Assembly: GCA_022780025.1 (NCBI GenBank) | Contig: JALEXS010000046.1 | Coordinates: 1 to 55,816, forward strand | Direction: 5' to 3' | Origin: Mollicutes bacterium | Lineage (GTDB): Bacteria; Bacillota_I; Bacilli_A; RFN20; CAG-826 | Length of the DNA stretch: 55,816 nt | Shown: positions 8,454-50,900 of the stretch, in pieces | Numbering within the stretch: the first letter of the stretch is position 1 | Layout of the letters: every line of letters starts with the position of its first letter | Notes under the pieces: generated by a model | Databases searched by the model: none | Told to the model about the DNA's origin: nothing | Seen by the model: the letters and a program-made list of their open reading frames with translations, nothing else | Program-made: the position numbers and the translations under genes

Positions 8454-9116
8454 ATGAAAAAATTAAATACACGTTTTATTAATATTGATAATTTTTCTAA
8501 ATTAGGAACTATAGTTTCTTATATTTTAGCTACTTTATTATTAGTACAATTATGTTTAACTATAGGAGTTAATTATAGTAATTTAAGTAATAGTTATGAT
8601 TTTTTAATAACTTATACTATTAATACTATATTTTATATCATGATTGCTGGTTATTTTAATAAAGGGAAAAATAACTTTTATTATATATTTTATGCAATCT
8701 TATTATTAATTTTAGGAAATTATATAATTCCTATCATAATGAGTATATTGAGACTAGATTTAACTTCATTTATATTTATTCCTTTATTAATTAGCTCTAT
8801 ATTAGCAATTTTATATTTTATATTTTTAGCTTTAGAAAATAAAAAAAGAGAGAAGAAATATTTTAAAGCATTAATGGTAGTAGGACTTATATTTGGTATT
8901 GCTGCTTTTATTTATGGAATATTTAATATTGTAATTTATTCTATTTCTATGGTTGAACTTATAGGTAATCTAAAGGAAATGGAAATTACAACTAATCAAC
9001 TTTTGGCAATTTTTGGTTATATTGTTTTAATTTTGACTAATTTAGTAGAAACAGTTGCTATTCCAATATTATTTGGTATTTATCCTTTTATATTAAAAAA
9101 AGAAAGACTTTATTAA
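8454..9116 (+). CDS. Integral membrane protein, unknown function
   Basis: 220 aa with about 6 hydrophobic helices and no recognisable motif. Confidence 0.6.
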   Translation: MKKLNTRFINIDNFSKLGTIVSYILATLLLVQLCLTIGVNYSNLSNSYDFLITYTINTIFYIMIAGYFNKGKNNFYYIFYAILLLILGNYIIPIIMSILRLDLTSFIFIPLLISSILAILYFIFLALENKKREKKYFKALMVVGLIFGIAAFIYGIFNIVIYSISMVELIGNLKEMEITTNQLLAIFGYIVLILTNLVETVAIPILFGIYPFILKKERLY

Positions 9117-9469: not shown

Positions 9470-9478
9470 TGTTATAAT
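9470..9478 (+). promoter_or_regulatory. Extended -10 promoter (TGtTATAAT) 6 nt before the response-regulator ATG
   Basis: TGTTATAAT at 9470-9478, ATG at 9485, no SD in between. Implies a leaderless or near-leaderless mRNA. Confidence 0.45.
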
Positions 9479-9484
9479 AAAAGT

Positions 9485-22444: not shown

Positions 22445-23434
22445 ATGAATATTAAAATATCAGATTTTAAAAACAATATTAAATGGATTGATGTTGAAAA
22501 TAATAAAGGTTTAAAAGCTAGATTTTGTACTTTTGGTGCTAGTGTTTATTCTTTATCTATTGATGAAACGCCTTTAATTCTTACTTTAAAAGATCCTGAC
22601 TTTTTCTTAAATTGTAGTCAATATTATGGAAAAACCTTAGGTAGAGTAGCTGGAAGAATTCCTCTTAGTGGTGAATTAGATGGTGAAGAATATAATCTTT
22701 TAAGAACTAAAAATTTTGATTATACATTACATGGTGGCGATGATAAATCATTATCTTATAAAAATTGGAATGTTAAAGTTAAAGAATTAAAAAATAGAAT
22801 TGATGTTAAATTTGATATTGTTAGTAAGGATAAAGAGAATGGATTCCCAGGAAAATGTCATATTTATGTAATTTATTCTATTTATAAAGACGAAAATAAT
22901 TTTAAAATTAGTTTTAAAGCAAGTTCTACTAAAACTACTTTGTTAAATTTATCTAATCATATTTATTGGAATTTCAATAATTTAAATTTAACTAATTATT
23001 CGATGAAAATGAATGCTAGTAAATATGGCGTTGTTGATAAAGATGTTTTTATTACTGATATTGAAGAAGTTCCTAGTTATTTAGATTTTAATAGAATGTC
23101 TAAATTAGGTTCTAAATTAGATCTTATTGAAAAAACTCCTTTAGGCACTATTGATAATACATTTATATATAATGAAATAGAAACCAAAAAGCCACAAGTT
23201 ATATTGAAAAATGATGAATATAAATTATCTTTATATACAGATTATCCTGCAATGAATATTTATGTTGATAATTCATTAACTGATGTTGATTTTATTAATA
23301 ATGATCACTTTACTACAAGAAGAGGAATTGCTTTAGAACCTCAACTAAACGTTCATGATTCTGATTCAATAATTCTTAAAAAAGGTGATAAATATAATTA
23401 CTTTATTTTATACAAAATCAGAAAAATAAGTTAA
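22445..23434 (+). CDS. galM: Aldose 1-epimerase (galactose mutarotase)
   Basis: 329 aa with GRVAGRI, HGG and NLSNHIYWN motifs. Lies upstream of galK. AAGGAG RBS. Confidence 0.8.
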   Translation: MNIKISDFKNNIKWIDVENNKGLKARFCTFGASVYSLSIDETPLILTLKDPDFFLNCSQYYGKTLGRVAGRIPLSGELDGEEYNLLRTKNFDYTLHGGDDKSLSYKNWNVKVKELKNRIDVKFDIVSKDKENGFPGKCHIYVIYSIYKDENNFKISFKASSTKTTLLNLSNHIYWNFNNLNLTNYSMKMNASKYGVVDKDVFITDIEEVPSYLDFNRMSKLGSKLDLIEKTPLGTIDNTFIYNEIETKKPQVILKNDEYKLSLYTDYPAMNIYVDNSLTDVDFINNDHFTTRRGIALEPQLNVHDSDSIILKKGDKYNYFILYKIRKIS

Positions 23435-23450
23435 CTTTGAGGGGGTTTTT

Positions 23451-24617
23451 ATGATAAACGAAGAGATTTTAATTAAAAATTATAAAGACATATTTAAGTC
23501 TAATCCTACCAATATGATTGATACTGGTGGACGTTTTGAAATATGTGGAAACCATACTGATCATAATCATGGATACTGTATTGTTGCAAATAGTTCACTA
23601 AGAGTTTATGCAGCTTTAGGTAAAAATAATGATAAAGTTTGTATTCAATCTAAAGGATATCCATATTTTGAATTTGATGTTAATAAATTAGAAAAATTAA
23701 CTGAAGATGAACATAAACCTATTGCTTTAGTTAAAGGTGTTTTATTTAAATTAAAAGAATTAGGTTATAAAGTTGGTGGATTTAATGCTTATATAGAAAG
23801 TGAAATTCCTGATGGTAGTGGAGTTAGTTCTAGTGCTGCTATGGAATCATTATTTGGTTATATTATTTCTTATTTATATAATGATGGAATAATTGAACCT
23901 TTAATAATTGCAAAAACTGGACAATTTAGTGAAAATGTTTATTTTAATAAACCATGTGGATTATTAGATCAAGTTGGTACATCTTTTGATAGTAGTAATT
24001 TTATTGATTTTAAAAATATTGATAATCCAGAAATTATTAATTTACCATTTAAATTACCTTTGACATTATTTTTAGTTAAGTCAATAGGCGATCATTCTAA
24101 TTTAACTCCTTTATATGCTGCAATTCCTAATAGTATGTATGAAGTTGCTAATCTTTTAGAAGGAAAAAAATATCTTAGAGATGTTAGTGATGCAAATATA
24201 TTCGATAGAATTGATAAATTAAATGTTAGTGATGAAGTTAAAAGAAAAGCTAAACATTTCTTTATTGAAAATGATAATGTCTTATTAGCTAAAAAAGCTA
24301 TTTTAAATAATGATGTTGGTACTTTCTTTGATGCAATAAGAAAGAGCCAATTAAGTAGTAAAAATGATATTGAAAATACATTTGTAAAAGGAGAATATAC
24401 AGGTTCACCTCAAGAAATTATAGATAAAGCTGAACAATTCTTGAAAGATAACGGAGTTACTAGAATTCATGGTGGTGGATTTAAGGGTACTGTATTAGCT
24501 TTTGTTAAAAATGAATTTGCTAATTCCTTTGAGGATTATTTAAAAGCAAATTATGAGAAAGACCGTTATTTTAGAGTAAATATTTCTAATAAAGCTATAC
24601 ACTATAAGAACATTTAG
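23451..24617 (+). CDS. galK: Galactokinase
   Basis: 388 aa. Galactokinase signature GRFEICGNHTDHNHG and GHMP motif PDGSGVSSSAA. Confidence 0.92.
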   Translation: MINEEILIKNYKDIFKSNPTNMIDTGGRFEICGNHTDHNHGYCIVANSSLRVYAALGKNNDKVCIQSKGYPYFEFDVNKLEKLTEDEHKPIALVKGVLFKLKELGYKVGGFNAYIESEIPDGSGVSSSAAMESLFGYIISYLYNDGIIEPLIIAKTGQFSENVYFNKPCGLLDQVGTSFDSSNFIDFKNIDNPEIINLPFKLPLTLFLVKSIGDHSNLTPLYAAIPNSMYEVANLLEGKKYLRDVSDANIFDRIDKLNVSDEVKRKAKHFFIENDNVLLAKKAILNNDVGTFFDAIRKSQLSSKNDIENTFVKGEYTGSPQEIIDKAEQFLKDNGVTRIHGGGFKGTVLAFVKNEFANSFEDYLKANYEKDRYFRVNISNKAIHYKNI

Positions 24618-26062
24618 TGATGGTTAAGGAAATAAATTTATTTTTTAAAAGAAAGTTTGAAAAATTTAATTATAAGAATATATCCTATGTTCTTATATGT
24701 TTTTTATTCCTTGCATTATCAATGTTTTTTGGTGAGGTAAATAATTCACATAATTCTGGAGCTTTTGGTACTAGTTTTTCTTTAGCTGGAACTATAATAT
24801 TTTATTTATTAATCGTTTTAAATTTTGCTTTAATTCTTTATATAGGGAAAATTAATAACATTTTAAAATTTAATAAAGGAGTCATTATCTTTATTTTTAT
24901 TGGGGTTCTGACGACTTTTTATATGATTGGGGTAGATTTTGGAACTGATTATAATAGATTATTTAATAATAATTCAATTACAATATTAGATAAATTTAAA
25001 TCAATTATGGATGTTTCTTTATCTATAATGATGTGTTTTGTTTTAATTTATTTAATACCTCCTTTTAAAGAAAAAGATTTAGCAATAAGAATATTCTGTT
25101 TTATTTTTGTTGGATTTTCTTTAGTAATGATAATTTATTCATTAATTACTGAGATGGATATTTATATAGCTTTTATTAAAAATCCAACATTTTTTACAAA
25201 GTATGATAGTGGTAATGTTAATGCTATTTGGTGTGTAAGCTTCTTTAAATATGGTAATGTTTATGGACATGTTTTATTTTTATTATGTTTAGTAATCTTA
25301 TTATTATCTGTTAGTTATAATCGAAGATTTATTTTCTTATTTAGTTTTTTAGTTGGTATATTTATTTTATTTAGTGGATCTCGAACTGCTTTCTTTGGAT
25401 TTTTTACTTTAATGATAAGTTATGGAATTACGTTTCTTATTAGCTTATATAAATCAAATAAATTGTATTTTTCTATTTTGTTATTTTTCTTTATATTCTT
25501 AATAATATTTGGAATTTTTGAAATATTTGTTTTTAAATTATTTACTATTAGAGAAGTTATTACTAAAAGTGATGGTAGTAAAGAAGTAATTAATTATACT
25601 TTACTTGATTTACTTAAGAAATATTTCAGTTATGTAGATAGTAGAATTGATATTTATCGAAGTGCAAGAACTAGATTTATTTGGTCTGATTTTATTTTTG
25701 GTATTGGTTATAATATGAATGATTTATTATCTAGAACATTTAATGGGTCATATTTTAATTATCATAATGGATTTTTAGAAGTTTATACTACTGGTGGTAT
25801 TTATTTATCCGCTTTATATATCTTCTTAATAGTTTATATTTTTCATATAAATAATAAATTATTTGTTAGAACTGATCGATATAAATATTATTTATATGTT
25901 ATTACACTACCTTATTTAATCTATCAATTAGGTGAAGCTTTTCCTATTTTATATAATGTTTTTGGAGGTGGCGTAACTGCTATAATATTTATTATGGTTC
26001 CTTTTAATAAAGTTAGAGAAGCTAATGAGATATGTAATATCAATAAACTCTTTATTAAATAG
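24617..26062 (+). CDS. O-antigen ligase/polymerase (Wzy_C)-like polytopic membrane protein
   Basis: 481 aa with at least 10 TM helices. A loop with SGSRTAFFGF and a later HNGFLEVYTTGG resemble the Wzy_C/O-antigen-ligase family. GTG at 24617 or ATG at 24620. Confidence 0.6.
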   Translation: MMVKEINLFFKRKFEKFNYKNISYVLICFLFLALSMFFGEVNNSHNSGAFGTSFSLAGTIIFYLLIVLNFALILYIGKINNILKFNKGVIIFIFIGVLTTFYMIGVDFGTDYNRLFNNNSITILDKFKSIMDVSLSIMMCFVLIYLIPPFKEKDLAIRIFCFIFVGFSLVMIIYSLITEMDIYIAFIKNPTFFTKYDSGNVNAIWCVSFFKYGNVYGHVLFLLCLVILLLSVSYNRRFIFLFSFLVGIFILFSGSRTAFFGFFTLMISYGITFLISLYKSNKLYFSILLFFFIFLIIFGIFEIFVFKLFTIREVITKSDGSKEVINYTLLDLLKKYFSYVDSRIDIYRSARTRFIWSDFIFGIGYNMNDLLSRTFNGSYFNYHNGFLEVYTTGGIYLSALYIFLIVYIFHINNKLFVRTDRYKYYLYVITLPYLIYQLGEAFPILYNVFGGGVTAIIFIMVPFNKVREANEICNINKLFIK

Positions 26063-26086
26063 TAAAGGATAGGTAAAATATAAGTC

Positions 26087-26320
26087 ATGTGGTTTGATAA
26101 AAAAAGTAAAAAAGTTAAAGCAATATTAGTATTTCAAATTTGGGGATTTATAGTTTCTAGTATTTATAGAATTGTATTTTATAAGAATTCTACAAATAAA
26201 GATAAAACTACATTAATTTGTGGTATTTGTTCTTTTATACCCTTTATAGGATTTTTAATTTCGATTTGTGATTTTATAAGTATTTTAGTAAGTAATAAAA
26301 TAATTGTAATGTGTGAATAA
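26087..26320 (+). CDS. Small membrane protein (77 aa)
   Basis: Two hydrophobic helices. TAAAAT lies 7 nt before the ATG. The stop codon lies 2 nt before the tRNA-Arg gene. Confidence 0.45.
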   Translation: MWFDKKSKKVKAILVFQIWGFIVSSIYRIVFYKNSTNKDKTTLICGICSFIPFIGFLISICDFISILVSNKIIVMCE

Positions 26321-26322
26321 AT

Positions 26323-26396
26323 AGGGTGTTAGTTTAGTGGTAAAACGATAGTTTCCGAAGCTATTGACAAGTGTTCGATTCACTTACGCCCTGCCA
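26323..26396 (+). tRNA. tRNA-Arg (anticodon CCG), CCA encoded
   Basis: Hand-folded cloverleaf: acceptor AGGGTGT/ACGCCCT, D arm GTTT-AGTGGTA-AAAC, anticodon arm ATAGT-TTCCGAA-GCTAT, T arm AAGTG-TTCGATT-CACTT, discriminator G, then CCA. Confidence 0.85.
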
Positions 26397-26584
26397 TAAG
26401 AAAATAAAGATTTAATTATATTAATTTAAAGTATAATCGTACATTCTCACTTTAAAATTAATAAATGTTTTATAAAATTGCTTAAAACCGAAAAAATATA
26501 AAGTGGAAAGAGATAAGTCAATATTTATCTATAATTTATTAGATATTATTAAAAATTGGATCTTATTTATGATAAAATATATTG

Positions 26585-27976
26585 ATGGATTCGATATTAA
26601 ATTATATAAATTTTAAGATGTTTAATGTTCTTACTGCTAAAGACAAAGAACTTAATTTAGATATATTAATTAAATTATATGACTATTTTTGTGGTGAATT
26701 TGGTGTTGATACTGCTTTAAGAAGTGATTTGATTACTTATTTAGAGCATAATATCAAATTTGACATGTATAAAGAAATTGATGATGAAGAAGAAAATGAT
26801 ATTAGTAATAAAAGTAAAAGAGAAATTATTACTACTAAATTAAATATATTCAAAAAAAGAGGATGGATTGAAGAAGAATATAATAATGATTTAGATATTA
26901 TTTATATGCTTAATAGTGATGCGATTACTATTTTAGAAGCATTATATTCTTTAATGCATGTTGATCGTAGTAATGAATTCAGTGGTTATGTAATTTCAAC
27001 ATATAATAATTTAAAAAATATTGATTACGATAAAAATTCTACTCAAGCAATAGAACAAGCTTTTGAAAGTTCTAAGAAATTTTCTAACAATCTTAATAGT
27101 ATGAATTCTAATATTAGAAGATATACTAATGAGATTTTACAAAAAGAAAATTATAACGCTAATAATATAGCAACAAATTTATTTAAAGAATATCAAAATA
27201 AAGTTGGAGTTAAATTATTCAATAACTTAAAGATTAACGAAAATCCAAGAATGTACGCTAGAAATATTATTGAATTAGTTGATATGTTTTTAGAAGATTC
27301 TAACTTTAGACGTATCATGTCAAATTATCAAGAAGTTAAGAAAATAAAGAAATTAGTTAATGAAGATTTCCAATACATGAAGTCTAGATTAAACTTTATT
27401 AAAGCAACTTTTAGTAATGTAGATTCTCGAATGAGAAATATTGATTCAAAAAATAATACTTATTTAAGAGTATGTGAAGATAAGATTAAATTTATTATTA
27501 ATGAGTCAAAAGATATTGAACAAGGAATTAATGATTTATTAAAAACAATGGGTTTCTGCAGGGATTTTTCTGATTTCGAGGACTTTTTTGAAATAGATAA
27601 TATAGAAAATATTGATCAATATTCAATATTTAAAGCTCGTGTAAATTCAAAAAGAACTAATAAAGTTGAGCTTGAAAGTAAAGATAATATTGAGATAGAT
27701 GATTTTAAGAATTTAGTAAATAAAATTAAAAAAGATAATCAATATTCTTTTGAAGGAATTAATAATTTTGCTAAATCTATATTAAAAGATAAAGAGATAA
27801 TAAAAGTAAGTGATCTAGATATTAAGGATGAAAATTTATATATTAAAGTCTTTTTATTAACTGCTTATCAAAATAATGAAAGAGCATCTTATAAGATTAA
27901 ATATTTAAACGATGAAACTATTGTTAACGATTATGTAATGAATAATTTTGAAATTATGAGGAGTAATAAATTATGA
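26585..27976 (+). CDS. jetA: JetA-like (kleisin/MksF-like) subunit of a Wadjet-like system
   Basis: About 463 aa. First gene of a tightly overlapped four-gene operon, with the size and position expected for JetA. Assignment is by context only; I recognise no sequence motif. TGaTAAAAT lies 6 nt upstream of ATG 26585 (the ORF track starts at TTG 26582). Confidence 0.55.
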   Translation: MDSILNYINFKMFNVLTAKDKELNLDILIKLYDYFCGEFGVDTALRSDLITYLEHNIKFDMYKEIDDEEENDISNKSKREIITTKLNIFKKRGWIEEEYNNDLDIIYMLNSDAITILEALYSLMHVDRSNEFSGYVISTYNNLKNIDYDKNSTQAIEQAFESSKKFSNNLNSMNSNIRRYTNEILQKENYNANNIATNLFKEYQNKVGVKLFNNLKINENPRMYARNIIELVDMFLEDSNFRRIMSNYQEVKKIKKLVNEDFQYMKSRLNFIKATFSNVDSRMRNIDSKNNTYLRVCEDKIKFIINESKDIEQGINDLLKTMGFCRDFSDFEDFFEIDNIENIDQYSIFKARVNSKRTNKVELESKDNIEIDDFKNLVNKIKKDNQYSFEGINNFAKSILKDKEIIKVSDLDIKDENLYIKVFLLTAYQNNERASYKIKYLNDETIVNDYVMNNFEIMRSNKL

Positions 27977-28608
27977 GTCAAGTTGAAAACTTTGAATTTT
28001 TAGCGAAGAGATTTAAAAATTTAAACGAAACAAAACAAAATCAATTTACTAAAATTGCTTTAAGATTATTAAATGAAACATTTTTAATTAAAGCAAAAGA
28101 GAGTGACCGTAATGATTATTATGAAGCTAGTGAATTAAAAGAAGAATTAGAAAACTTTTTTGCTATTTTAAATTATAGTTTTCATGAAGATAAGATATTA
28201 CAAATAGTTTATATAAAGACTGAAGATAATAAAAATAGAATGCATCTTACTAAATTTGAAACTGTAATTTTATTATCTTTAAGAGTTGCTTATTTTAATA
28301 GTAGTAAAAAGTCTAGTTTAATTGATGTTGCTTCTATAAGTTATGAAGAATTAAAACAAAGTGTTTTGAAAACTAATATTTTTAAAGATGATAAATCTAC
28401 TAATGAATATCAAGAAGCTTTAAAGAAACTTAGAAGATTTAAAGTTATTGATTATAAAGGTGGTAGAAATTTTGTTAATGATAGTCGTATATTTATTTAT
28501 CCATCAATTGCTTATGTTGTAAAAGTTGATGATATTGTAAATCTAGACAATTTAATTAAAGCTTATAATAAGGAAGAAAATAAAGATGAAGAAATTAACG
28601 AAGATTAA
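27973..28608 (+). CDS. jetB: JetB-like (MksE-like) subunit
   Basis: 211 aa. ATGA overlap with the upstream gene and a 23-nt overlap with the SMC-like gene. Size and position fit JetB (DUF4194-like). Acidic C-terminal tail. Confidence 0.55.
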   Translation: MSQVENFEFLAKRFKNLNETKQNQFTKIALRLLNETFLIKAKESDRNDYYEASELKEELENFFAILNYSFHEDKILQIVYIKTEDNKNRMHLTKFETVILLSLRVAYFNSSKKSSLIDVASISYEELKQSVLKTNIFKDDKSTNEYQEALKKLRRFKVIDYKGGRNFVNDSRIFIYPSIAYVVKVDDIVNLDNLIKAYNKEENKDEEINED

Positions 28609-31600
28609 ACTTATAAATTGGCATGTTTATACAGATAAAGAGATTTCACTTTTTGGTAATACTTTAATAAGCGGTGAAAATGGTGCTGGTAAATCCACCT
28701 TAATTGATGCGATTTTATTTGTAATATCTGGTGGCACATGTAAATTTAATACTGCTGCTAATGAAAAAAATGATCGTAATTTAGAATCTTATGTTAGAGG
28801 TAAACTTGGATTTGAAAATAAGGAATATTTACGTAATGGCGATACAATTTCTCATATTGCGTTAGAATTTTTCGATGATTATAACAATACTTATTCTGTA
28901 ATTGGAGCCGTAATAACCGCTAACGTTGGTTCTAAAATTGAAAAAATGTTTTATCATGTTTTAGATACAACTATTAAAAGTGATTTTTATTATTCTTATA
29001 AAGATAATAAAAAATATCCTGCAAGTTATGATGAATTAAAACGTAATTATAATAAAAAATATAATTTTGAACTTTTAGATGGCACTTTAGAAGCTATTAA
29101 AAAGAAGATTTTATTAGCTTTAAGTATTGAAGATAATAAATATTTAGAATTATTACCAAAAGCATTAGCTTTTAAACCAATAGGAGAAATTGATAAATTT
29201 GTTTTTGATTATTTACTTCCTAGAAAAGACTTAGATCTTGTCAATATGAAAGATAGTGTTAGACGATATCGCCATCTTCAAGAAATTATAAACTGTGAAA
29301 ATGATAAACTAACTTATTTAAGACCAATTAAAGATGAAGGTCTTACTTTTGATAATTTATCTACTGAAGTAAGATGTTTAAATATTATCTTAAAAGAGAA
29401 AGATATTGATAAAACTAATAGTGCTATAAATGAGACAAATAATAAATTATTAACTATTCATAACCAAATAAAAACATGTGATAAAGAAATAGAAGATATT
29501 GAAAAAAATATAGAAATACAGCAGAATAGCAAGGTTAAATTAGAAAATAGCGATGTTTTTAATGCTGTGAGAAAATTAAATGATGAAAAAAGTAGAATGC
29601 TCGAAAGAAAACTTTTTATCGAAAAAGAGTTTGAAAAGAAAGGTAATTTTATCGAAGAAATTAACATTGATTTAAATATTTTAGATATTAGAAGTAATAT
29701 CAAAGAATCATTTTATAGTAATAATTTTGAAGGCTATCAATCAGAGATTAATCGAATTAAAGAGTATACAAAAAGGCTTTTAAAAGATTATACTGATGAA
29801 CAATATAAACTTAATGATAATAATAAAAAAGTCAATGAAAAATATAATAATGCTGCAAGCGAACTTTCTAATTTAGAAAAAGGATTCGTATTACAAGATC
29901 AAAAAGTTGAATTATTAAAGGGATATTTAAAAGATTATTTCTTTGAAAAATATAACAAAGATATCGAAGTAAAAGCTTTTTATGAATTAGTAGAAGTAAA
30001 TGACGAATCTTATCGAAATGCTTTAGAAGGATATTTAAATACTAGAAAAGCTTATTTATTTATTGAAAATAAAAAATATTACGATGAAGCTTTAAGAGTT
30101 TATGAAGAACACTCAAAAACTGATCCTAATTTATATGGAGTTGGCTTAGTTAATATAGAAGCTTTAAAAGATATAGAAATAAATCCAAAATCTTTAGCTA
30201 GTAAATTAACTTATTTAACAGAAGATGCTAAAAAATATGGTGCTTATGTATTAGGAAATATTATCTGTGTAGATAATGTTGATGAATTGAAATTACACGA
30301 AGCAGCTATTACTAAAACTTGTATGTTATATCAAGGTAAAGTTGCTAGTAAAATTAATCCTAGATTTTATAAAAAATATTATTTAGGTAATAGTTCAATT
30401 CAAATTAATATTGAACGTTTATTAGAAGAAATTAATAAATATAAAATAGATATAGCTGATTATGATGTAAAAATCAAAAATGTTAATAATAAATTAGATG
30501 CTATTAATCGTATAAATGATAATTTACATTATGTTTCATTAGAAGAAAACTTATTTAGTGAATTTAATAGCTTAACAAGTAATATAAATGATATTGATAG
30601 ACAAATTATCGCTTTAAATTCTACAGATTTAATCAAACTAAATGAACAAATTAATGAAATTGATAAAAATATTATTAGTTATAAGAAAAATAAAGAAAAT
30701 ATTAAAAATTCTAGAGATTTGTTACTTCAAGATGAAGGCAATTTAAATAATAAAATTATTAATTTAAAAGAAAGAATTGCTTCTTATAATACCGATATTA
30801 AAGATGTAAGTAACACTACAATTTATCGTGATTTAAAGAAGGCTTATTCATCAACAAGTACTGATAATATTAATTACGCAATTAATGAAAAAGAGAAATT
30901 ATTAGATAATAAAAGGCGTATTATTTTAAAGAATATGTCGGATTACCGTTCTAATATTGAATTTCATTGCGATTTAAATCCAGAAATATCAAATTTAAAT
31001 GAATTTATAAAATTATATAATCAAATTGAAAATCGTAATCTTATTAAATATAAAGATGATGCTAGAAAAGCTAAAGAAGAATGCGAAAAAGCATTTAAAA
31101 ACGATTATATAATGAAAATTAGAGATAATATTAATGAAGAATTAGGTAATATTAAGAAATTAAATGATTCTTTATCTAAAAAACCATTTGGTAATGAACA
31201 AGAAATATATAAATTTATTGCTAAAGGTACTAAAAAACCTGAATTTGAAGCATATTATAATATCTTTATTTCAAATGAAAGTTATACTCAAAACAATTTA
31301 TTTGAGACTGAAATGAGTGAAAAGAATTTAATTTTGATGGATCAATTATTTGAAAAATTAAATAGCACTAATAATTTGAATAATGAAAAAGAACTTGCTA
31401 AATTCACAGATTATCGCAATTTTATGACTTACGATATTCAAATTACTGATAAAAATGGTAATAAAACATATTATTCTACTGCAGGAAAAGGAAAAAGCGG
31501 TGGTGAAACACAAACTCCATTCTATGTATTTATTGCTGCATCATTTGAACAAATTGTATCAAAGTCGCGCAATTTTAAATCACCAGCATGTTTAGCATTT

Positions 31601-31816
31601 TTAGATGAAGCATTTAATAATATGGATGATTCTCGAATTCAAACGATGATGGATTTTTACCGTGATCTTAATATTCAATTAATTATAAGTGTTCCAACGT
31701 CAAGAACTGCTTCAATTTTAAAATATTGTGATACTGGATTATCGATATGTAAAAAAGATAATGAAGCATATATATTTGAATTAAGAAAAAAAGATATTTA
31801 TGAAGGAAACATTTGA
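28586..31816 (+). CDS. jetC: JetC-like SMC/MksB-family ATPase
   Basis: 1076 aa. N-terminal Walker A (GENGAGKST, aa 30-38). Roughly 800 aa of K/E/N-rich predicted coiled coil. C-terminal signature-like GKSGGETQ and Walker B LAFLDEAF. Confidence 0.85.
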   Translation: MKKLTKIKLINWHVYTDKEISLFGNTLISGENGAGKSTLIDAILFVISGGTCKFNTAANEKNDRNLESYVRGKLGFENKEYLRNGDTISHIALEFFDDYNNTYSVIGAVITANVGSKIEKMFYHVLDTTIKSDFYYSYKDNKKYPASYDELKRNYNKKYNFELLDGTLEAIKKKILLALSIEDNKYLELLPKALAFKPIGEIDKFVFDYLLPRKDLDLVNMKDSVRRYRHLQEIINCENDKLTYLRPIKDEGLTFDNLSTEVRCLNIILKEKDIDKTNSAINETNNKLLTIHNQIKTCDKEIEDIEKNIEIQQNSKVKLENSDVFNAVRKLNDEKSRMLERKLFIEKEFEKKGNFIEEINIDLNILDIRSNIKESFYSNNFEGYQSEINRIKEYTKRLLKDYTDEQYKLNDNNKKVNEKYNNAASELSNLEKGFVLQDQKVELLKGYLKDYFFEKYNKDIEVKAFYELVEVNDESYRNALEGYLNTRKAYLFIENKKYYDEALRVYEEHSKTDPNLYGVGLVNIEALKDIEINPKSLASKLTYLTEDAKKYGAYVLGNIICVDNVDELKLHEAAITKTCMLYQGKVASKINPRFYKKYYLGNSSIQINIERLLEEINKYKIDIADYDVKIKNVNNKLDAINRINDNLHYVSLEENLFSEFNSLTSNINDIDRQIIALNSTDLIKLNEQINEIDKNIISYKKNKENIKNSRDLLLQDEGNLNNKIINLKERIASYNTDIKDVSNTTIYRDLKKAYSSTSTDNINYAINEKEKLLDNKRRIILKNMSDYRSNIEFHCDLNPEISNLNEFIKLYNQIENRNLIKYKDDARKAKEECEKAFKNDYIMKIRDNINEELGNIKKLNDSLSKKPFGNEQEIYKFIAKGTKKPEFEAYYNIFISNESYTQNNLFETEMSEKNLILMDQLFEKLNSTNNLNNEKELAKFTDYRNFMTYDIQITDKNGNKTYYSTAGKGKSGGETQTPFYVFIAASFEQIVSKSRNFKSPACLAFLDEAFNNMDDSRIQTMMDFYRDLNIQLIISVPTSRTASILKYCDTGLSICKKDNEAYIFELRKKDIYEGNI

Positions 31817-32999
31817 TTATAAATTAATAAACAAATTACTAGATAAATACGAAAATAGTTCTTTATTTAAAAATACAAATATTCATCAAATTATTATTAA
31901 ATTAAATATGAGTGATGAATTATTTAAAGATTATTATTCTAATAAAGCATATAAATATCGTGATGAAATTGATTCTTATTTAAATAATTTATCTTCTTTA
32001 AATCTAATTAAAATTAATAAAGATTCTCAGATAATTAATTCAATTGAATTAAATTTAAATAACTTAGAAAAGGCATATAACTACATTAATCGAGTAAGTA
32101 AACTTACACTTTATAATGAATATTTATCATTATTAAATACATTTAAAAACAAAGAAAATAGTGGGGTTTTGCAAGGTTTTATATTTAAAATCGAAGATTT
32201 ATTGAATAAAAAAGAGTCTATTAAAAAGTATTTTAATAGTTATGACGAGTTATCTATTTTGTTAAATGGCATTAAAAATATTGAAGAAAATAAAGAAGAA
32301 ATTTTACTAAGAAATTTTTCTAATAAAGTCTTTAAAGATTCAAAATATTTAGCAAAACATATACAAAGATTTATATCTATATTTAACGAATTTGGTAATT
32401 TTGATTTTATTGATGATAACGAATTTTTAAATTATTTTAATATTTATAAAAACCCAACTTTTACGTACATAAAAGGTGATATTATTTTTAAAATTAATGA
32501 TCAGATTATAGATTTATCTAAATTAAAAGATTCTATTTCATTAACTGAAGAAGAAATTAATAACTTAACTATACTAGAAATTAATACAAATAAAATTTTA
32601 ACAATTGAGAATCTTACAACTTTTTATTATTTTGATGATAACGAATTTATAAGTATTTATTTGGCTGGATTTAATAACTCTATAAAAGCTAAATTACTTA
32701 AAAAAATATATGATTTTAATAAAAATAATATTTTTTATCATTTTGGAGATATTGACTGTAATGGATTTACAATCTTAATTCACTTAATGAAAGAAACACA
32801 GATAGATATAAAACCATATCTTATGAGTGAAGAAATTTTATTAAAATATATAAAATATTCTGATCCACTTACTAATAATGATGAAAATAAACTTAAATTA
32901 TTTTTAAAAAGAAAAGAATACGAACCATTTCACGAAGTTATAAAAGCTATGCTTTTACATAAATGTAAATTAGAACAGGAAGCAATAGAAATATACTAA
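31800..32999 (+). CDS. jetD: JetD-like Toprim nuclease subunit (MksG-like)
   Basis: 399 aa. The C-terminal region has the Toprim acidic residues in JetD-typical context: ILTIENLTTF (Glu) and FYHFGDIDCNGFTILIHL (DxD), followed by YLMSEE. 17-nt overlap with jetC. Confidence 0.8.
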   Translation: MKETFDYKLINKLLDKYENSSLFKNTNIHQIIIKLNMSDELFKDYYSNKAYKYRDEIDSYLNNLSSLNLIKINKDSQIINSIELNLNNLEKAYNYINRVSKLTLYNEYLSLLNTFKNKENSGVLQGFIFKIEDLLNKKESIKKYFNSYDELSILLNGIKNIEENKEEILLRNFSNKVFKDSKYLAKHIQRFISIFNEFGNFDFIDDNEFLNYFNIYKNPTFTYIKGDIIFKINDQIIDLSKLKDSISLTEEEINNLTILEINTNKILTIENLTTFYYFDDNEFISIYLAGFNNSIKAKLLKKIYDFNKNNIFYHFGDIDCNGFTILIHLMKETQIDIKPYLMSEEILLKYIKYSDPLTNNDENKLKLFLKRKEYEPFHEVIKAMLLHKCKLEQEAIEIY

Positions 33000-33032
33000 A
33001 AAATAATTTTAAATGTGTTATAATTTCTCTGT

Positions 33033-33743
33033 ATGGGACAAGCGTTAGAGAATATTGAAAATTACATAAAAAAATTAGAAGAGTTTGAACTTCCTGAGTT
33101 TAATGACTTACCTAATATTCCTCTTTATATGGAACAAGTAGTCGGTTATGTTTCAGAAGTTTTAGATGCATTAGAAAGAGAAAAAGATTTAAATATTACC
33201 CCTTTTATGGTCAATAATTATGTTAAAGCCAAGATTATTGAACCACCAAAAGAGAAAAAATATAATCGTCGTCAAATCAGTTACTTAATTGCGATTTCTT
33301 TAATGAAATCTGTTGTTAGTATGCGTGATTTAGCAACTTTTATAGATTTAGATGAAATAAATGTTAGTGATAAAGATAGTCTTTATGCTTTTTTTAAAAA
33401 AATGGAAGATGAATCAATCCATAATGTTGTTCATAAAGTAAAAGTAAGAAATGAAGTATTAAAAAAATCTAATAAAAAGAGCAAAAAAGATAGTCCAGAA
33501 AGTGAAGAACAAAATGAACAAAGCAATTTCGCTTATATCGCTTTAAAATTATATATAGATAGTGCAGCAAATAAAATGATTGCTGATTATATAATGCGTA
33601 ATTTATCTTCTGAAGTTTTATCCAAAAAAGTTTACGAAGAAAGTGAAGTTACGAAATATAACTATAAGAAAAATAAAGTTGAAGCAAAAATATTACGTGA
33701 AAGACAAAGAAAAGTTAAGGATACTAAGGAGGAAAAACGTTAA
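33033..33743 (+). CDS. DUF1836 domain protein
   Basis: 236 aa. The N-terminal pattern (LPNIPLYMEQVVGYV...ITPFMVNNYVKAKII.PP..KKYNRRQISYLI) is typical of DUF1836. TGtTATAAT lies 8 nt before the ATG. Confidence 0.65.
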   Translation: MGQALENIENYIKKLEEFELPEFNDLPNIPLYMEQVVGYVSEVLDALEREKDLNITPFMVNNYVKAKIIEPPKEKKYNRRQISYLIAISLMKSVVSMRDLATFIDLDEINVSDKDSLYAFFKKMEDESIHNVVHKVKVRNEVLKKSNKKSKKDSPESEEQNEQSNFAYIALKLYIDSAANKMIADYIMRNLSSEVLSKKVYEESEVTKYNYKKNKVEAKILRERQRKVKDTKEEKR

Positions 33744-34756
33744 TGAAGGTTTTAGTAACTGGTGGTCTTGGATTCATTGGAAGTCATACTGTTTGCGAAT
33801 TAATTGAGAGTGGTTATGACGTTGTAATAGCTGATAATTTATATAATTCTAAAATCGATGTTTTAGATAGAATTGAAAAAATTACAGGGGTAAGACCTCA
33901 TTTTTATAATATTAATGTTCAAGATAAAGAAGCTTTAGATAAATTATTTGCTAAAGAAGAACCAGAGGGAATAATTCATTTTGCTGCTTATAAAGCAGTC
34001 GGGGAAAGCGTTTATAAACCTCTTGAATACTATGAAAATAACTTTGATACTACATTTGCTTTACTTTGGATGATGAGAAAATATCCAAAATGTAAGAATT
34101 TTGTATTTAGTAGTAGCGCTACAATTTATGGTGTTCCTGATCATGTACCTTTAAAAGAAACTGATCCTAGAAAAGATGCTACATCCCCTTATGGCGAAAC
34201 AAAAGTTGTTATTGAAAGAATATTAGAAGATATTGCTAAAGTTAATAAAGAATATAACATCGCAATTTTAAGATACTTTAATCCAATTGGTGCTCATAAA
34301 TCAGGATTATTAGGTGAAGATCCAAATGGTATTCCAAATAACTTATTACCTTATATAAACAAAGTTGCTACAGGCGTTTTACCTTGCGTAAATGTTTTTG
34401 GCGATGATTATCCAACTCCTGATGGAACAGGCGTTAGAGATTATATCCATGTATTAGATTTAGCACGTGGACACGTTTTAGCTTTAAAGAAATTAGAAAC
34501 AAATCCTGGACTTGTTACTTATAATTTAGGTACTGGTAAAGGCACCAGTGTTTTAGAGATTATTAAAGATTATGAAAAAGCTACTGGTATAAAAATTAAT
34601 TATGTAATTAAGCCTAGAAGAGCAGGTGATGTTGCAGAAAATTATGCTGATTGCAGTAAAGCAAAAAATGAATTAGGATTCACATGTAAATATAATGTTT
34701 TTGATGCATGCTTAGATGGATACAATTTCCAAAAAAAAGAAAATCAAAATAAATAG
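33743..34756 (+). CDS. galE: UDP-glucose 4-epimerase
   Basis: 337 aa with GGLGFIGSHT Rossmann motif and catalytic SPYGETK (YxxxK). TAATG overlap with the upstream gene. Confidence 0.92.
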   Translation: MKVLVTGGLGFIGSHTVCELIESGYDVVIADNLYNSKIDVLDRIEKITGVRPHFYNINVQDKEALDKLFAKEEPEGIIHFAAYKAVGESVYKPLEYYENNFDTTFALLWMMRKYPKCKNFVFSSSATIYGVPDHVPLKETDPRKDATSPYGETKVVIERILEDIAKVNKEYNIAILRYFNPIGAHKSGLLGEDPNGIPNNLLPYINKVATGVLPCVNVFGDDYPTPDGTGVRDYIHVLDLARGHVLALKKLETNPGLVTYNLGTGKGTSVLEIIKDYEKATGIKINYVIKPRRAGDVAENYADCSKAKNELGFTCKYNVFDACLDGYNFQKKENQNK

Positions 34757-35254: not shown

Positions 35255-35331
35255 TGCGGCGTGGACAAATGGTAAAGTCACTTGTCTCTGAAACAAGGTT
35301 TGTATTGGTTCGAGTCCAATCGCCGCAGCCA
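35255..35331 (+). tRNA. tRNA-Gln (anticodon CUG), CCA encoded
   Basis: Acceptor TGCGGCG/CGCCGCA with the bacterial Gln-type U1:A72 pair and G73. Anticodon arm CTTGT-CTCTGAA-ACAAG, T arm ATTGG-TTCGAGT-CCAAT. By my fold the variable region has 6 nt. Confidence 0.8.
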
Positions 35332-46682: not shown

Positions 46683-46852
46683 CATTTCATATAATAATTA
46701 AATATAAAATCGATAAAATGTAGACTAATTATGTCGCTAAGACAATTTAGTTTTATTAACAACTTTATCTAGTATTGAAAAACCAAGGTCAATTTGACTT
46801 TTTTAGTTGACTATTGTATGATATTAATGTTCAAGTTCTGAACGTATTTACT

Positions 46853-47953
46853 ATGGAAACAAATGATATTAAAACTAAAGAAAAAAAGCCTAAAACTCCT
46901 ATGAGTTCAAAAAAATATACTATCCTTATGTCTATATTCGGAGTTTTGTCTTGCTTAGCTGGTGGTGTTGGTGGCTACTTTTTATATAATATATTTAAAC
47001 CTGAAACGAAATATGAAACAGGTTTTGTTGATTATACAAGTCTTGAAAAAAGAGCAGCTAGTAAAAAGAATGCAAACCTTGATGTAGAATTTAAAGCTGA
47101 TCCATATAATTTAGCTAATTTAGCTTTTTATAATTTTGGTAATTCTAAATATAGTTTAACTCTAAGTAATGGATTAGTTCGTAATATTTCTGGTGATCAA
47201 AATGTTAAAGCAGTAACTTTTGGTGATAATGGAGATTTCTTTAACCAAAATATTTCTGCTACTACCGGTGGTGGACCTATTCAAATTAATACCGCTTATC
47301 GTTTTTATGATTTAAATAAAGATGATAATAAAGATTATCAAATGATTGCATATGAAAATAAATTAGAAAGTGATTGGAAAAAAGATTTAAAACCTTCAAG
47401 AACTTATACATATGATCAATATATTGAGGATTATGGCAAATTATTAAAAGGCAATTATATAGTAGATAATAGTGATAAATATATTTCTAATAATTTATCA
47501 CAATATAAAAATGGTTCTAATAATCTTGTTAGCGGTGCTTTTATATATCAAATGTTTGATGAAGCAGTCAATAGTTCAAAATTAGAAAAAATTGATAATG
47601 GTTATAAGATATTAATTTCTTTAGATGCTCAAAAAGCTTGCTCTTATTATATAAGACAAATTAAAAAGAATGGTGGCATGTCTAAAAATCCTACTTTTAC
47701 TACTGATATTTCTATAGAAGTAATTTTAGATAAAGAATATAAATTAGTTTCTACCCATTCTGAAGAAGCTTATAACGTTATTTTAGGTGCTCAAGTTTCT
47801 TGTAATGCAACTATGGATATTAACTATTATGCAAGTGAAAATCCTATTAAATTAAATAATAATGGGGTTGATGTAGAAATGAAGATACCTTCAATCGAAG
47901 AAAAATTCCCTGTCTATTTAGATAGAGATTTAACATTAAAATTTGTGGAGTAA
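46853..47953 (+). CDS. Membrane-anchored protein, unknown function
   Basis: About 366 aa from ATG 46853. K-rich N-terminus, one TM helix (YTILMSIFGVLSCLAGGVGGYFLY), then an N/K/Y-rich extracytoplasmic domain. The ORF-track TTG at 46814 lies inside a predicted promoter (TTGACT-N17-TATGAT, 46794-46822). Confidence 0.55.
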   Translation: METNDIKTKEKKPKTPMSSKKYTILMSIFGVLSCLAGGVGGYFLYNIFKPETKYETGFVDYTSLEKRAASKKNANLDVEFKADPYNLANLAFYNFGNSKYSLTLSNGLVRNISGDQNVKAVTFGDNGDFFNQNISATTGGGPIQINTAYRFYDLNKDDNKDYQMIAYENKLESDWKKDLKPSRTYTYDQYIEDYGKLLKGNYIVDNSDKYISNNLSQYKNGSNNLVSGAFIYQMFDEAVNSSKLEKIDNGYKILISLDAQKACSYYIRQIKKNGGMSKNPTFTTDISIEVILDKEYKLVSTHSEEAYNVILGAQVSCNATMDINYYASENPIKLNNNGVDVEMKIPSIEEKFPVYLDRDLTLKFVE

Positions 47954-47958
47954 TAATT

Positions 47959-50900
47959 ATGATACGTAAATTATTTTCAATATTAGTTTGTACAGTTAGT
48001 ACAGCAATTGGTGGTTTATCATCATTTGCTTATTTTAAATATCAAGATGATAAAATTAGACAAAATATGTCTAATAAGAAGCCAAGCGAAGAATATGAAT
48101 TAACTCCTGGTGAGAAATTTTTAACAAATTTATTAAAATCTTCAATTAAATGTGATTCTTTAAATTTAAATATTAAAGGAATTGAAGAAAATAAAAATTT
48201 AGGAATTAATTTTAAAGGTGTAGTTGAATATGATAGTGCTTCTTTAATGGCTGGTGATTTTAATGGATTAAAAGCTAACGGTGCATTAAAAGTTAATTAT
48301 GGCACATTAAACGAGAGTGCTACTTTTATTTTTGATAAAAAATTATATTTAGGATATGCAGATAATTATTATTCATTTGATACATCTATTTTCAATAATG
48401 TCTTAGATTTAATTAATTTATTTAAAGATCAAAACGATAATAAAGAAGAAACTGAATCAAGCTTAAATTTGAATGATTTATTAGGAAATGTTACTAATTA
48501 TTTAAGTGATTTAAAGGAAACTAAATTAGAAGATGAATCTGGTTATTTATTTACTTTAAGTCTACCTGATTTAGGTGATATCGTATTTACATCTAATAAT
48601 GATTTTTTAATGACTGGAATTAATGGAAAATTATCTATTAATAATATAGATGTTTCTTTATTAGCTGAAGGTGTCTCACAAAGCGTAAATGATAGTTATT
48701 TTAATGGAGTAACTGATGAAAATAAATATACATCTACTAATAATTTAAATAATATTATTACTACATTAACTAAATATATAAATTCTAAAAAAGGTAGTGC
48801 TAGATTTAATGCTAACTTGAATTTAAAAGATGGTAATAAATTAGATTTAGATGGAAATATTTTAATTGATTATTCTAATGCTAGTAAATTAGAAGAAGGA
48901 ATTTATGAATTAAGTTTAAATTCTAATGTATTTTCAACTGATAGAAATACATTGAAAGCTCATTATCAAGATAAAACTACTTATTTTGCTTTAAATAATT
49001 TAATTAAAGGTTATGTTAGCAATACTTCAATTGAAGAAATTATTGATACTTTAAAAAATAAGACTAATTTAATTACTGAACTTAATTTGATGGATAAAGT
49101 AAATCAATTATTAGCTAATAGTGATTTGTTAGAACTTATTACTAATAAAGATTATTCTAAGATTCATAGTATTATTAAAAATATTGAATTTGATAATTTT
49201 AATAATGAAATTACTATATCCTTATATAATAAAGCATTTAATTTAGGTGATGAAAATTCAATTTTAGATATAGTATTTGGTTTTAATGAAAAAGAAGTCA
49301 GTTATATTAAAATTAAAAACTTATGTTATGAAGGTAATAGTGCTAATTTTGATTTATATTTTGATAAAGAAATAACTTATGATAATAATTTTACTTCCTT
49401 AGAAGGATTTAAAGATTATTCTAATGTAAGTAATATATTTAATAATGTTATTAATTTAGTAAATGATAAGAAATTTAATGTTGATTATGCTATTAATATT
49501 GTAAATAAAGATAAAAATGACAATAGTTATAATTTAACTGGTAATATTGGTGGTGATATTTCTAATTTAGATTTTACTAAAGAGTTTAATATTAATGATT
49601 TAGCTAATGGTGCTTATACATTTAGTATTAATAATTTAGCTGGAATAAATCAAGATATCAGCGCTTATTATTTAGATAATAATTTATATTTAAAATATAA
49701 CGAATTAATTAAAAATAGTGTCAATAAAGACTCATTTATTCACTTATTCGATTTCATTAATAAGAAGTTTAATAATGGTAATAATGCTATTGATATTAAC
49801 CAAATATTTAGTAAATATACTGAAGAATTTAATAATAAATATAAAGCTGAAATCGATGAGATTTTAAAAGGAAACCTTGCAAAACTCGAAGATTATTTTG
49901 TAATTGATAGAGATAATTCAGATCCAAATAAGATTAAAGTTGAGATTTATCCTAATGGTGTAAATAATAACGATGTCTTATATGAAGTAGTAATTTCTAC
50001 TAATGATAAAGCAATCGATTCATTGTCAATCAAAGGTATTAATTTATCAAATTATATTGTTGATATTAATCTTAATTTAAAAGAATTTAACGACTTTAGA
50101 TTATTAGAAGAAGAAAGAGCAACATATTATCCTTTAGATAATTTTGAACAAACATTAGTTTCATTTATTGATAAAGATGTAATGCAATATGGACTTGGTA
50201 TTGAAGGTGCTATTTATAGTGGCAATAAATTATACTTTGATGGAAATTTAAATGCAGATTTTACTAATGGTAATTATTTTGGTGAATTAACTTTAGATGG
50301 ACAATTAGAAGGCGTTGATAAAGAACGTTATATTCACAATTTTAAATTAGATAAATTTACTAATGAAGATACTTCACTAAAAGATTTTTATATTATTTAT
50401 AACGATACTATGAAAATTAATATGCATAGCAAAACTATTATTGATTTAATTAATGAATTTAAAACAATTCCTGAAAAGAATGTATTAAATTATTTATTTA
50501 AATTATCTTCAATGCTTTCTGGAGAACTTCCTATTCAAACTATTATTAAAAATAAAGAATATTTATCTTTAATTAATAATAATTATATAAAAACATTTAC
50601 TACATCTAACGGATTAGTTTCTATAACTTTAGATGGAACTTTACCTGGTGCTACTAAAGATATTAAATTAGATATAAATTATAATGAAGAAACTAAAACT
50701 TTATTATCATTAAATTTATATTTAATTAGTCAAAAAGATGATCCAACATTAGAAAATAATCTTTATGCATCATTTAAAGTAACTTTTAAAAATTATGATA
50801 AAGTAGCTGAAGAAAATAGAATTCATTTAACTAAAACTGATAGTGATGTTTTCTTTGATTTTGATAATTTAAAATTATTATTTACTTGTGGTATTAATAC

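What the first reader, a model, noticed from the sequence alone, without database searches (positions are those of the whole stretch)
26585..32999. Four-gene SMC/Toprim operon: a divergent Wadjet (JetABCD)-like anti-plasmid system
Seen in sequence:
- Four co-directional genes of about 463, 211, 1076 and 399 aa, with overlapping or coupled junctions (ATGA, 23-nt and 17-nt overlaps).
- Gene 3 is an SMC/Mks-type ATPase: Walker A GENGAGKST at the N-terminus, a very long K/E/N-rich coiled-coil region, and C-terminal GKSGGETQ plus Walker B LAFLDEAF.
- Gene 4 carries Toprim acidic residues in the context I associate with JetD/MksG: IENLTTF, then HFGDIDCNGFTIL.

Established knowledge: Wadjet operons are jetA (kleisin-like, ~450-500 aa), jetB (~200-250 aa), jetC (~1100 aa SMC-like) and jetD (~400 aa Toprim nuclease). 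They restrict circular plasmid DNA by loop extrusion and cleavage.

Inference: this is a Wadjet-like defence locus. Genes 1 and 2 are assigned by size and order only, so they could be very divergent or novel partners. The subtype (I/II/III) cannot be called by eye.

The operon starts about 190 nt after a tRNA gene, has no SD at gene 1, and has an extended -10 element 6 nt before the ATG.
Basis: partly seen in the sequence, partly recalled or inferred. Interest (0 to 1): 0.8.

Follow-up and report, generated by a model that had tools for sequence, protein, structure and literature searches.

The report
Ordinary type I Wadjet anti-plasmid operon
This is an intact but ordinary four-gene type I Wadjet (JetABCD) system, a known bacterial defence that finds and cuts small circular plasmids, sitting in the chromosome of an uncultured low-GC gut bacterium.

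Summary
All four proteins match type I Wadjet models end to end: PADLOC JetA1 1.9e-57, JetB1 6.4e-38, JetC1 1.2e-237, JetD1 1e-99; Pfam JetA, DUF4194, AAA_29 plus SbcC_Walker_B, and JetD_C. A confident AlphaFold model of JetD (pLDDT 90.8) matches MksG, P. aeruginosa JetD, topoisomerase VI-A and Spo11, and the Toprim acidic residues are invariant across 64 homologs. The genes are under strong purifying selection (dN/dS 0.01-0.10). They co-diverge with housekeeping flanks in two related uncultured Bacilli MAGs, so the system is functional and vertically inherited there. More distant relatives keep the same architecture in other genomic contexts. The only mildly unusual feature is a probably leaderless jetA mRNA, and that arrangement recurs at other genes of this organism. 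Verdict: a new member of a well-known kind, of low interest.

The parts
26549..26578 (+). Promoter-like site: -35-like TTAAAA, an 18-nt spacer, and the extended -10 TGATAAAAT (26570-26578). The -10 ends 6 nt before the jetA ATG, which implies a leaderless or near-leaderless transcript.
   Evidence: The TGATAAAAT + 6 nt + ATG arrangement is conserved in L001 and L002 although the rest of the intergenic region differs. The function is inferred and was not measured.
26585..27976 (+). jetA, the kleisin-like subunit (463 aa; an in-frame TTG lies one codon upstream at 26582).
   Evidence: Pfam PF18982 JetA, 3.6e-61, profile positions 15-433 of 434. PADLOC JetA1, 1.9e-57, residues 6-461. dN/dS 0.03 against L001.
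27973..28608 (+). jetB, the KITE/MukE-like subunit (211 aa).
   Evidence: Pfam DUF4194, 8.1e-17, full profile. PADLOC JetB1, 6.4e-38. dN/dS 0.01.
28586..31816 (+). jetC, the SMC/MukB-like ATPase (1076 aa). It has Walker A K36, the signature-like motif SGGE at 971-974 (within GKSGGETQ 969-976), and Walker B D1007-E1008.
   Evidence: PADLOC JetC1, 1.2e-237, residues 1-1072. Pfam AAA_29 7.3e-18 at the N-terminus and SbcC_Walker_B 6.4e-24 at the C-terminus. Weak head-domain matches to solved JetC (8dk1, 8as8) and MukB. Motif positions. dN/dS 0.05.
31800..32999 (+). jetD, the CAP + Toprim nuclease (399 aa). The acidic residues E270, D317 and D319, and E392-Q393-E394, are invariant.
   Evidence: PADLOC JetD1, 1e-99, residues 4-397. 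Pfam JetD_C, 5.9e-26. Invariant columns in 64 homologs. AlphaFold model with pLDDT 90.8. Foldseek matches to MksG 8b7f (5.7e-9), Topo VI-A, PaJetD 7til (7.7e-7) and Spo11. dN/dS 0.10.

Best explanation
The locus is a functional, chromosomally encoded type I Wadjet (JetABCD) system. By homology with the characterised systems, JetC dimers are bridged by the kleisin JetA and bound by JetB, forming an SMC motor that loads on DNA and extrudes loops using ATP. On a small circular molecule the motor consumes the whole circle and stalls. JetD, a dimeric CAP+Toprim nuclease, then cleaves the trapped DNA, so plasmids are destroyed while the large chromosome is spared. Shown here: the identity, completeness and type of all four subunits; the conserved catalytic motifs; the JetD fold; purifying selection; and vertical co-divergence with the flanks. 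Inferred from the literature on homologs: loop extrusion, sensing of circular DNA and of its size, and cleavage. The four genes are probably transcribed from an extended -10 promoter as a leaderless mRNA and translated by coupling through the overlapping junctions; this is also inferred.
For: All four proteins match type I Wadjet models over their full length: PADLOC JetA1 1.9e-57, JetB1 6.4e-38, JetC1 1.2e-237, JetD1 1e-99, and Pfam JetA, DUF4194, AAA_29 + SbcC_Walker_B and JetD_C, all above the curated cut-offs. Walker A, the signature-like motif and Walker B are intact in JetC. In JetD, E270, D317, D319 and E392/Q393/E394 are invariant across 64 homologs. The JetD model (pLDDT 90.8) matches MksG, PaJetD, Topo VI-A and Spo11 with Foldseek probability 1.0. 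dN/dS is 0.01-0.10 for all four genes, and their dS (0.21-0.50) is comparable to that of the flanking housekeeping genes. The operon is intact and syntenic in two related MAGs. The same 463-466 / 213-215 / 1071-1073 / 400-401 aa architecture is found in more distant relatives. For mechanism and definitions: review PMC10586767, and native-host plasmid restriction in Clostridium cellulovorans, PMC12287153.
Against: There are no functional data for this locus or this organism. Sequence similarity to the structurally and biochemically studied systems is low. phmmer finds no PDB hit for JetA, JetB or JetD, and even a 64-sequence JetD profile does not reach the solved JetD chains. Structural alignments of JetD to those chains show only 12-14% identity. 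The locus lies among housekeeping sugar-metabolism genes and not in a defence island, which is not typical for a defence system, though it is not contradictory either.
Confidence: 0.9

Rival explanations
1. The complex has been co-opted in this small, AT-rich genome as a housekeeping chromosome-organising condensin (MksBEF/MukBEF-like), and plasmid defence is secondary or lost.
For: The locus is vertically inherited, embedded among housekeeping genes (TsaD, GalM, GalK, GalE, Glf, Clp), and under selection as strong as its neighbours. No other defence genes or mobile-element genes lie nearby.
Against: The nuclease subunit JetD is retained with invariant Toprim catalytic residues and is under purifying selection (dN/dS 0.10). 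That would not be expected for a pure condensin role. The closest family models are defence-type JetC1 models, not MukB or SMC: the NCBIfam SMC models score far below their cut-offs. The same operon occurs in other genomic contexts in relatives, in one case next to defence-like genes.
Confidence: 0.05
2. The operon is an inactive remnant: present and recognisable, but no longer working.
For: None specific. The only points are the lack of experimental data and the somewhat faster evolution of JetD (89% identity to L001, against 96-100% for JetA, JetB and JetC).
Against: All four ORFs are intact in three genomes. dN/dS is 0.01-0.10. All catalytic motifs are conserved.
Confidence: 0.03
3. It is a different SMC-like defence system (Lamassu, type II/III Wadjet or another ABC-ATPase system) that only resembles Wadjet type I.
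For: JetC gives weak partial hits to LmuB, JetC2, PtuA, DndD and MADS3 models and to TIGR02680.
Against: Those hits are partial (P-loop or head regions only) with E-values of 1e-9 or weaker, against 1.2e-237 over the full length for JetC1. TIGR02680 scores 31.8 bits against a cut-off of 462.85. DUF2399 scores 17.6 bits, below its cut-off of 23.4. JetA, JetB and JetD match only type I models.
Confidence: 0.01

Closest known systems
Type I Wadjet JetABCD of Bacillota, e.g. Bacillus cereus Q1 (Doron et al. 2018, from my own knowledge and as cited in PMC12287153) and Clostridium cellulovorans 743B Clocel_0831-0834 (PMC12287153)
   Same: The jetA-jetB-jetC-jetD order, the subunit sizes, the Pfam and PADLOC families, the conserved JetD catalytic residues, and a chromosomal location in a low-GC Gram-positive lineage. 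Homologs at 33-45% JetD identity are annotated as Wadjet JetD in Clostridium and Robertmurraya.
   Different: The host is different (an uncultured gut Bacilli MAG at about 24% GC). jetA probably has a leaderless start. The locus lies within a galactose-metabolism and housekeeping neighbourhood. I made no direct sequence comparison with the B. cereus Q1 or C. cellulovorans proteins.
Structurally characterised type I systems: E. coli GF4-3 JetABCD (8as8, 8bfn, 8q72), P. aeruginosa PA14 JetABC and JetD (8dk1-3, 7til), and C. glutamicum MksBEFG, of which the MksG structure 8b7f was matched here
   Same: The JetD fold (CAP + Toprim; Foldseek probability 1.0 to 8b7f and 7til). JetC head-domain similarity. 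The same four-subunit composition.
   Different: Very low sequence identity: 12-14% for JetD in the structural alignments, and no phmmer hit for JetA, JetB or JetD. The structural TM-scores are only 0.33-0.45 over the whole chain. I infer this comes from a different relative orientation of the two domains.
MukBEF / MksBEF condensins
   Same: An SMC-kleisin-KITE core. JetC matches the MukB head (9gm6, 7nyw), and JetB is MukE-like.
   Different: This locus carries the fourth, nuclease subunit and matches the defence-type models far better. MukBEF has no JetD.
Topoisomerase VI-A / Spo11
   Same: The JetD model matches their CAP + Toprim architecture (1d3y, 2zbk, 9o0g, 8urq).
   Different: According to the literature, the JetD CAP domain lacks the catalytic tyrosine, so JetD acts as a nuclease and not a topoisomerase (PMC10586767). 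I did not check the tyrosine position here.

Membership tests
Wadjet type I (JetABCD) | Four co-directional genes in the order jetA-jetB-jetC-jetD forming one operon | tested here: met
   four + strand ORFs with 4-, 23- and 17-nt overlaps. The next gene has its own extended -10 promoter.
Wadjet type I (JetABCD) | JetA: a kleisin-like subunit of the JetA family (PF18982 / PADLOC JetA1) | tested here: met
   207.5 bits against a cut-off of 26.2, profile positions 15-433 of 434. JetA1, 1.9e-57, end to end.
Wadjet type I (JetABCD) | JetB: a KITE/MukE-like subunit with DUF4194 (PF13835) | tested here: met
   61.9 bits against a cut-off of 32.7, full profile. JetB1, 6.4e-38.
Wadjet type I (JetABCD) | JetC: an SMC-like ABC ATPase with N-terminal Walker A and C-terminal signature and Walker B motifs separated by a long coiled coil | tested here: met
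   AAA_29 at residues 4-60, SbcC_Walker_B at 939-1026, JetC1 1.2e-237 over 1-1072, K36, SGGE at 971-974, D1007-E1008. The coiled coil and hinge are covered by the full-length JetC1 alignment. The Pfam SMC_hinge hit itself is insignificant (E = 0.074).
Wadjet type I (JetABCD) | JetD: an N-terminal CAP domain plus a C-terminal Toprim domain with conserved metal-binding acidic residues | tested here: met
   JetD_C, 91.3 bits against a cut-off of 22. JetD1, 1e-99. E270, D317 and D319 invariant in 64 homologs; the model (pLDDT 90.8) matches MksG, PaJetD and Topo VI-A.
Wadjet type I (JetABCD) | Type I and not type II or III (best match to type I subunit models; the type II/III markers DUF2399 and TIGR02680 absent) | tested here: met
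   only JetA1, JetB1 and JetD1 models hit, and JetC2 hits are partial at 2e-9 or weaker. DUF2399 is below its cut-off. TIGR02680 scores 31.8 bits against a cut-off of 462.85.
Wadjet type I (JetABCD) | ATP-dependent restriction or cleavage of small circular DNA | not testable with these tools
   This needs a transformation or conjugation assay, or biochemistry with purified complex. It is inferred from homologs (PMC10586767, PMC12287153).
Wadjet type I (JetABCD) | Dimer-of-dimers JetABC assembly through the kleisin N-terminus, and binding of JetD to JetABC | not tested
   No complex prediction was run. This feature is known from the cryo-EM work summarised in PMC10586767.
MukBEF/MksBEF condensin (no nuclease) | A three-subunit SMC-kleisin-KITE complex without a Toprim nuclease partner | tested here: not met
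   A conserved JetD gene overlaps jetC by 17 nt.
Lamassu (LmuB-based) | An LmuB SMC-like protein with an LmuA effector and no kleisin/KITE pair | tested here: not met
   the LmuB hits are weak and partial (2.7e-7), and JetA and JetB are present.

The most novel reading that the evidence does not exclude
In this lineage of uncultured, very AT-rich gut Bacilli, Wadjet has become a fixed part of the core chromosome. It is leaderless, probably constitutively expressed, vertically inherited and as constrained as housekeeping genes. It might therefore contribute to chromosome organisation or to keeping the lineage plasmid-free, and not behave as a transient, horizontally shuffled defence module.
Probability: 0.06. 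Interest if true: 0.45.

Novelty: new member of a known kind. Interest (0 to 1): 0.12.

Why it matters
It matters little beyond annotation. It records an intact type I Wadjet system in an uncultured human-gut Bacilli lineage, which may be relevant if anyone tries to introduce plasmids into these organisms. It adds a sequence-distant JetD/JetABC example that is nonetheless canonical in fold. The probable leaderless expression is a small point about gene expression in this organism and not about Wadjet.

Tried and rejected
1. Sequence-only searches of the PDB found nothing relevant. I tried phmmer with JetA, JetB and JetD, and JetD profiles built from 3 sequences and from 64 sequences. The two hits they returned (CovR, a designed protein) are chance-level matches. 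Only the fold search connected JetD to the solved JetD and MksG structures.
2. NCBIfam has no models that hit JetA, JetB or JetD.
3. The tRNA-Arg as an integration site or island boundary is rejected. L002 has the operon at the same place without the tRNA. There is no integrase or transposase nearby, and GC content across the operon (0.20-0.23) is close to that of the adjacent flanks (0.21-0.29).
4. A recombination or allele-swap explanation for the higher JetD divergence is rejected. Nucleotide identity to L001 is fairly uniform (about 0.93-0.95) and dips only mildly in jetD (0.88-0.91), with no sharp breakpoint. dN/dS for jetD is 0.10.
5. The leaderless arrangement as a Wadjet-family feature is rejected. 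L003 and L004 have normal SD sequences before jetA.
6. The terminator scan found none in 26000-33800, so the operon's 3' end is defined only by the next gene's promoter-like site.
7. The large protein without Pfam hits at 47959-51771 is unrelated to the large protein near the L003 Wadjet operon. None of the window's unannotated proteins hits a PADLOC model.
Full report
**Observation**

The region 26585-32999 holds four co-directional ORFs on the + strand:
- 26582/26585-27976, which is 464 aa from a TTG or 463 aa from the adjacent ATG
- 27973-28608, 211 aa
- 28586-31816, 1076 aa
- 31800-32999, 399 aa

The junctions overlap by 4 nt (ATGA), 23 nt and 17 nt. The quoted motifs are present. In gene 3, GENGAGKST is at residues 30-38 (Walker A lysine K36), GKSGGETQ at 969-976 and LAFLDEAF at 1003-1010. 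In gene 4, IENLTTF is at 269-275 and HFGDIDCNGFTIL at 314-326. ARAGORN finds tRNA-Arg(CCG) at 26323-26396, 189 nt upstream of the ATG, and tRNA-Gln(CTG) at 35255-35331. TGATAAAAT lies at 26570-26578, six nucleotides before the ATG at 26585, and there is no GGAG-like sequence in between.

**Identity of the four proteins**

- Gene 1 matches Pfam JetA (PF18982) at 3.6e-61 over almost the whole profile.
- Gene 2 matches DUF4194 at 8.1e-17.
- Gene 3 matches AAA_29 at its N-terminus and SbcC_Walker_B at its C-terminus.
- Gene 4 matches JetD_C (PF09983) at 5.9e-26.

All of these are above Pfam's curated cut-offs. Against PADLOC, each protein aligns end to end with type I models: JetA1 1.9e-57, JetB1 6.4e-38, JetC1 1.2e-237 (residues 1-1072) and JetD1 1e-99 (residues 4-397).

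Type II markers are absent or insignificant:
- JetC2 models give only partial hits, at 2e-9 or weaker.
- DUF2399 scores below its cut-off.
- TIGR02680 scores 31.8 bits against a cut-off of 462.85.

This is therefore a canonical type I Wadjet operon.

**JetD fold**

Sequence searches of the PDB did not reach the solved JetD structures, with the single protein or with profiles of 3 and 64 sequences. I therefore collected homologs. There were 266 hits, all of the listed ones full length and carrying PF09983. Some are named Wadjet JetD by NCBI in Clostridium and Robertmurraya.

In a 64-sequence alignment, E270, N271, T273, G290, H314, D317, D319, G322 and E392-Q393-E394 are invariant. An AlphaFold2 model built from that alignment has mean pLDDT 90.8. 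Its best Foldseek matches in the PDB all have probability 1.0:
- C. glutamicum MksG, 8b7f, 5.7e-9
- topoisomerase VI-A, 9o0g, 1d3y and 2zbk
- P. aeruginosa JetD, 7til, 7.7e-7
- Spo11, 8urq

Whole-chain TM-scores are modest (0.33-0.45). I infer this comes from the relative orientation of the two domains, which the literature describes as flexible (PMC10586767). JetC gives weak head-domain matches to solved JetC (8dk1, 8as8) and MukB.

**Source organism and context**

The window has about 25% GC. It uses TGA as a stop codon, for example in jetA and jetC, so the genetic code is the standard bacterial one.

A scan of species-representative genomes found two relatives. One is an uncultured Bacilli MAG from a Hadza gut sample (L001, JetC 96% identical). 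The other is Bacillales bacterium UBA6380 (L002, 67% identical). Both carry the operon in the same chromosomal position, with the same neighbours on both sides. Upstream are TsaD, GalM, GalK and a Wzy-like membrane protein. Downstream are DUF1836, GalE, an AAA_33 kinase, tRNA-Gln, an acyltransferase, Glf and a Clp ATPase.

The rest of the window encodes ordinary fermentative metabolism, and nothing else in it hits a defence model. L002 lacks the upstream tRNA-Arg, so the tRNA is not an insertion site for the operon.

**Selection and inheritance**

Between the window and L001, dN/dS is 0.03 for JetA, 0.01 for JetB, 0.05 for JetC and 0.10 for JetD. Their dS values (0.21-0.50) are in the range of the flanking housekeeping genes. 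Nucleotide identity is about 0.93-0.95 across the region. It dips mildly in jetD (0.88-0.91) and shows no sharp breakpoint.

The system is therefore maintained by selection and has diverged together with the chromosome in this lineage. JetD evolves fastest (89% and 53% identity to L001 and L002, against 96-100% and 67-71% for JetA, JetB and JetC) but is still clearly constrained.

Relatives at about 40-43% JetD identity (L003, L004) keep the same four-gene architecture and subunit sizes in unrelated contexts. In L004 the operon lies next to a Schlafen-like helicase, an AAA_13 ATPase and a DpnD/PcfM gene. This fits a mobile defence module that happens to be fixed in the window's lineage.

**Expression**

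The extended -10 followed by 6 nt and the ATG is conserved in L001 and L002, although the rest of the L002 intergenic region has diverged. Transcription would then start at or next to the A of the ATG, giving a leaderless mRNA. This is an inference.

The same pattern, no SD and TGnTAnnnT ending 6-8 nt before the ATG, occurs at 5 of the 45 ORF starts in the window. About 0.3 would be expected from the motif's frequency. The downstream DUF1836 gene is one of the five, which marks the 3' boundary of the jet operon. L003 and L004 have normal SD sequences before jetA. Leaderless initiation is therefore a habit of this organism and not a property of Wadjet. jetB and jetC have SD-like sequences inside the preceding genes, and jetD has none. 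I infer translational coupling through the overlaps.

**Mechanism**

By homology (PMC10586767; PMC12287153; abstracts listed), JetABC is an SMC motor that extrudes DNA. On small circular DNA it runs out of track and stalls, and JetD then cleaves the trapped DNA. All four subunits are needed for plasmid restriction. Nothing in this locus departs from that picture.

What is shown here is membership, completeness, the catalytic residues, the JetD fold and selective constraint. The activity itself is inferred.

**Verdict**

The locus is an ordinary type I Wadjet operon that standard defence-system annotation would call automatically. It is a new member of a known kind, of low interest.

The most novel reading left open is that it has become a fixed, housekeeping-like component of this small-genome lineage, possibly with a role in chromosome organisation. 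The retained and conserved nuclease argues against that, and I put its probability at about 6%.

Noticed in passing
window 9476-9484 (before the ATG at 9485), 26570-26578, 33016-33024, minus-strand start at 36726, and upstream of 41727: Five of the 45 ORF starts have no Shine-Dalgarno sequence and carry an extended -10 (TGnTAnnnT) ending 6-8 nt before the ATG. About 0.3 would be expected by chance. This suggests that leaderless mRNAs are a regular feature of this uncultured low-GC Bacilli lineage.
   Followed up: partly
window 46814-47953 and 47959-51771: Two adjacent ORFs of 379 aa and 1270 aa have no Pfam or PADLOC match. The large one is unrelated to the 1281-aa unannotated protein near the L003 Wadjet operon. 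Function unknown.
   Followed up: partly
window 212-2176 and 8454-9116: ORFs of 654 aa and 220 aa have no Pfam or PADLOC hits.
   Followed up: no
window about 26088-26321: A small ORF of about 77 codons, hydrophobic-looking by eye, lies between the Wzy-like gene and tRNA-Arg. The corresponding L002 stretch looks coding and aligns partly with it. L002 has no tRNA-Arg there, so the tRNA was gained or lost within the lineage.
   Followed up: no
window 22445-24617 and 33743-34756: The Wadjet operon, together with a Wzy-like gene and a DUF1836 gene, sits between the galactose-utilisation genes GalM and GalK upstream and GalE downstream. The arrangement is conserved in L001 and L002. This is an unusual, non-island setting for a defence system.
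   Followed up: partly
L004 1-4697: In a more distant relative, the Wadjet operon is preceded by a Schlafen-group-3-like helicase, a MazG-like protein, a DpnD/PcfM protein and an AAA_13 ATPase. This looks like a defence island or mobile-element context.
   Followed up: no
window 31800-32999 compared with L001 and P0002-P0009: JetD is the fastest-evolving subunit. Several alleles about 90% identical to it exist in public data, while JetA and JetB are 99-100% identical between the window and L001. dN/dS is still 0.10.
   Followed up: yes
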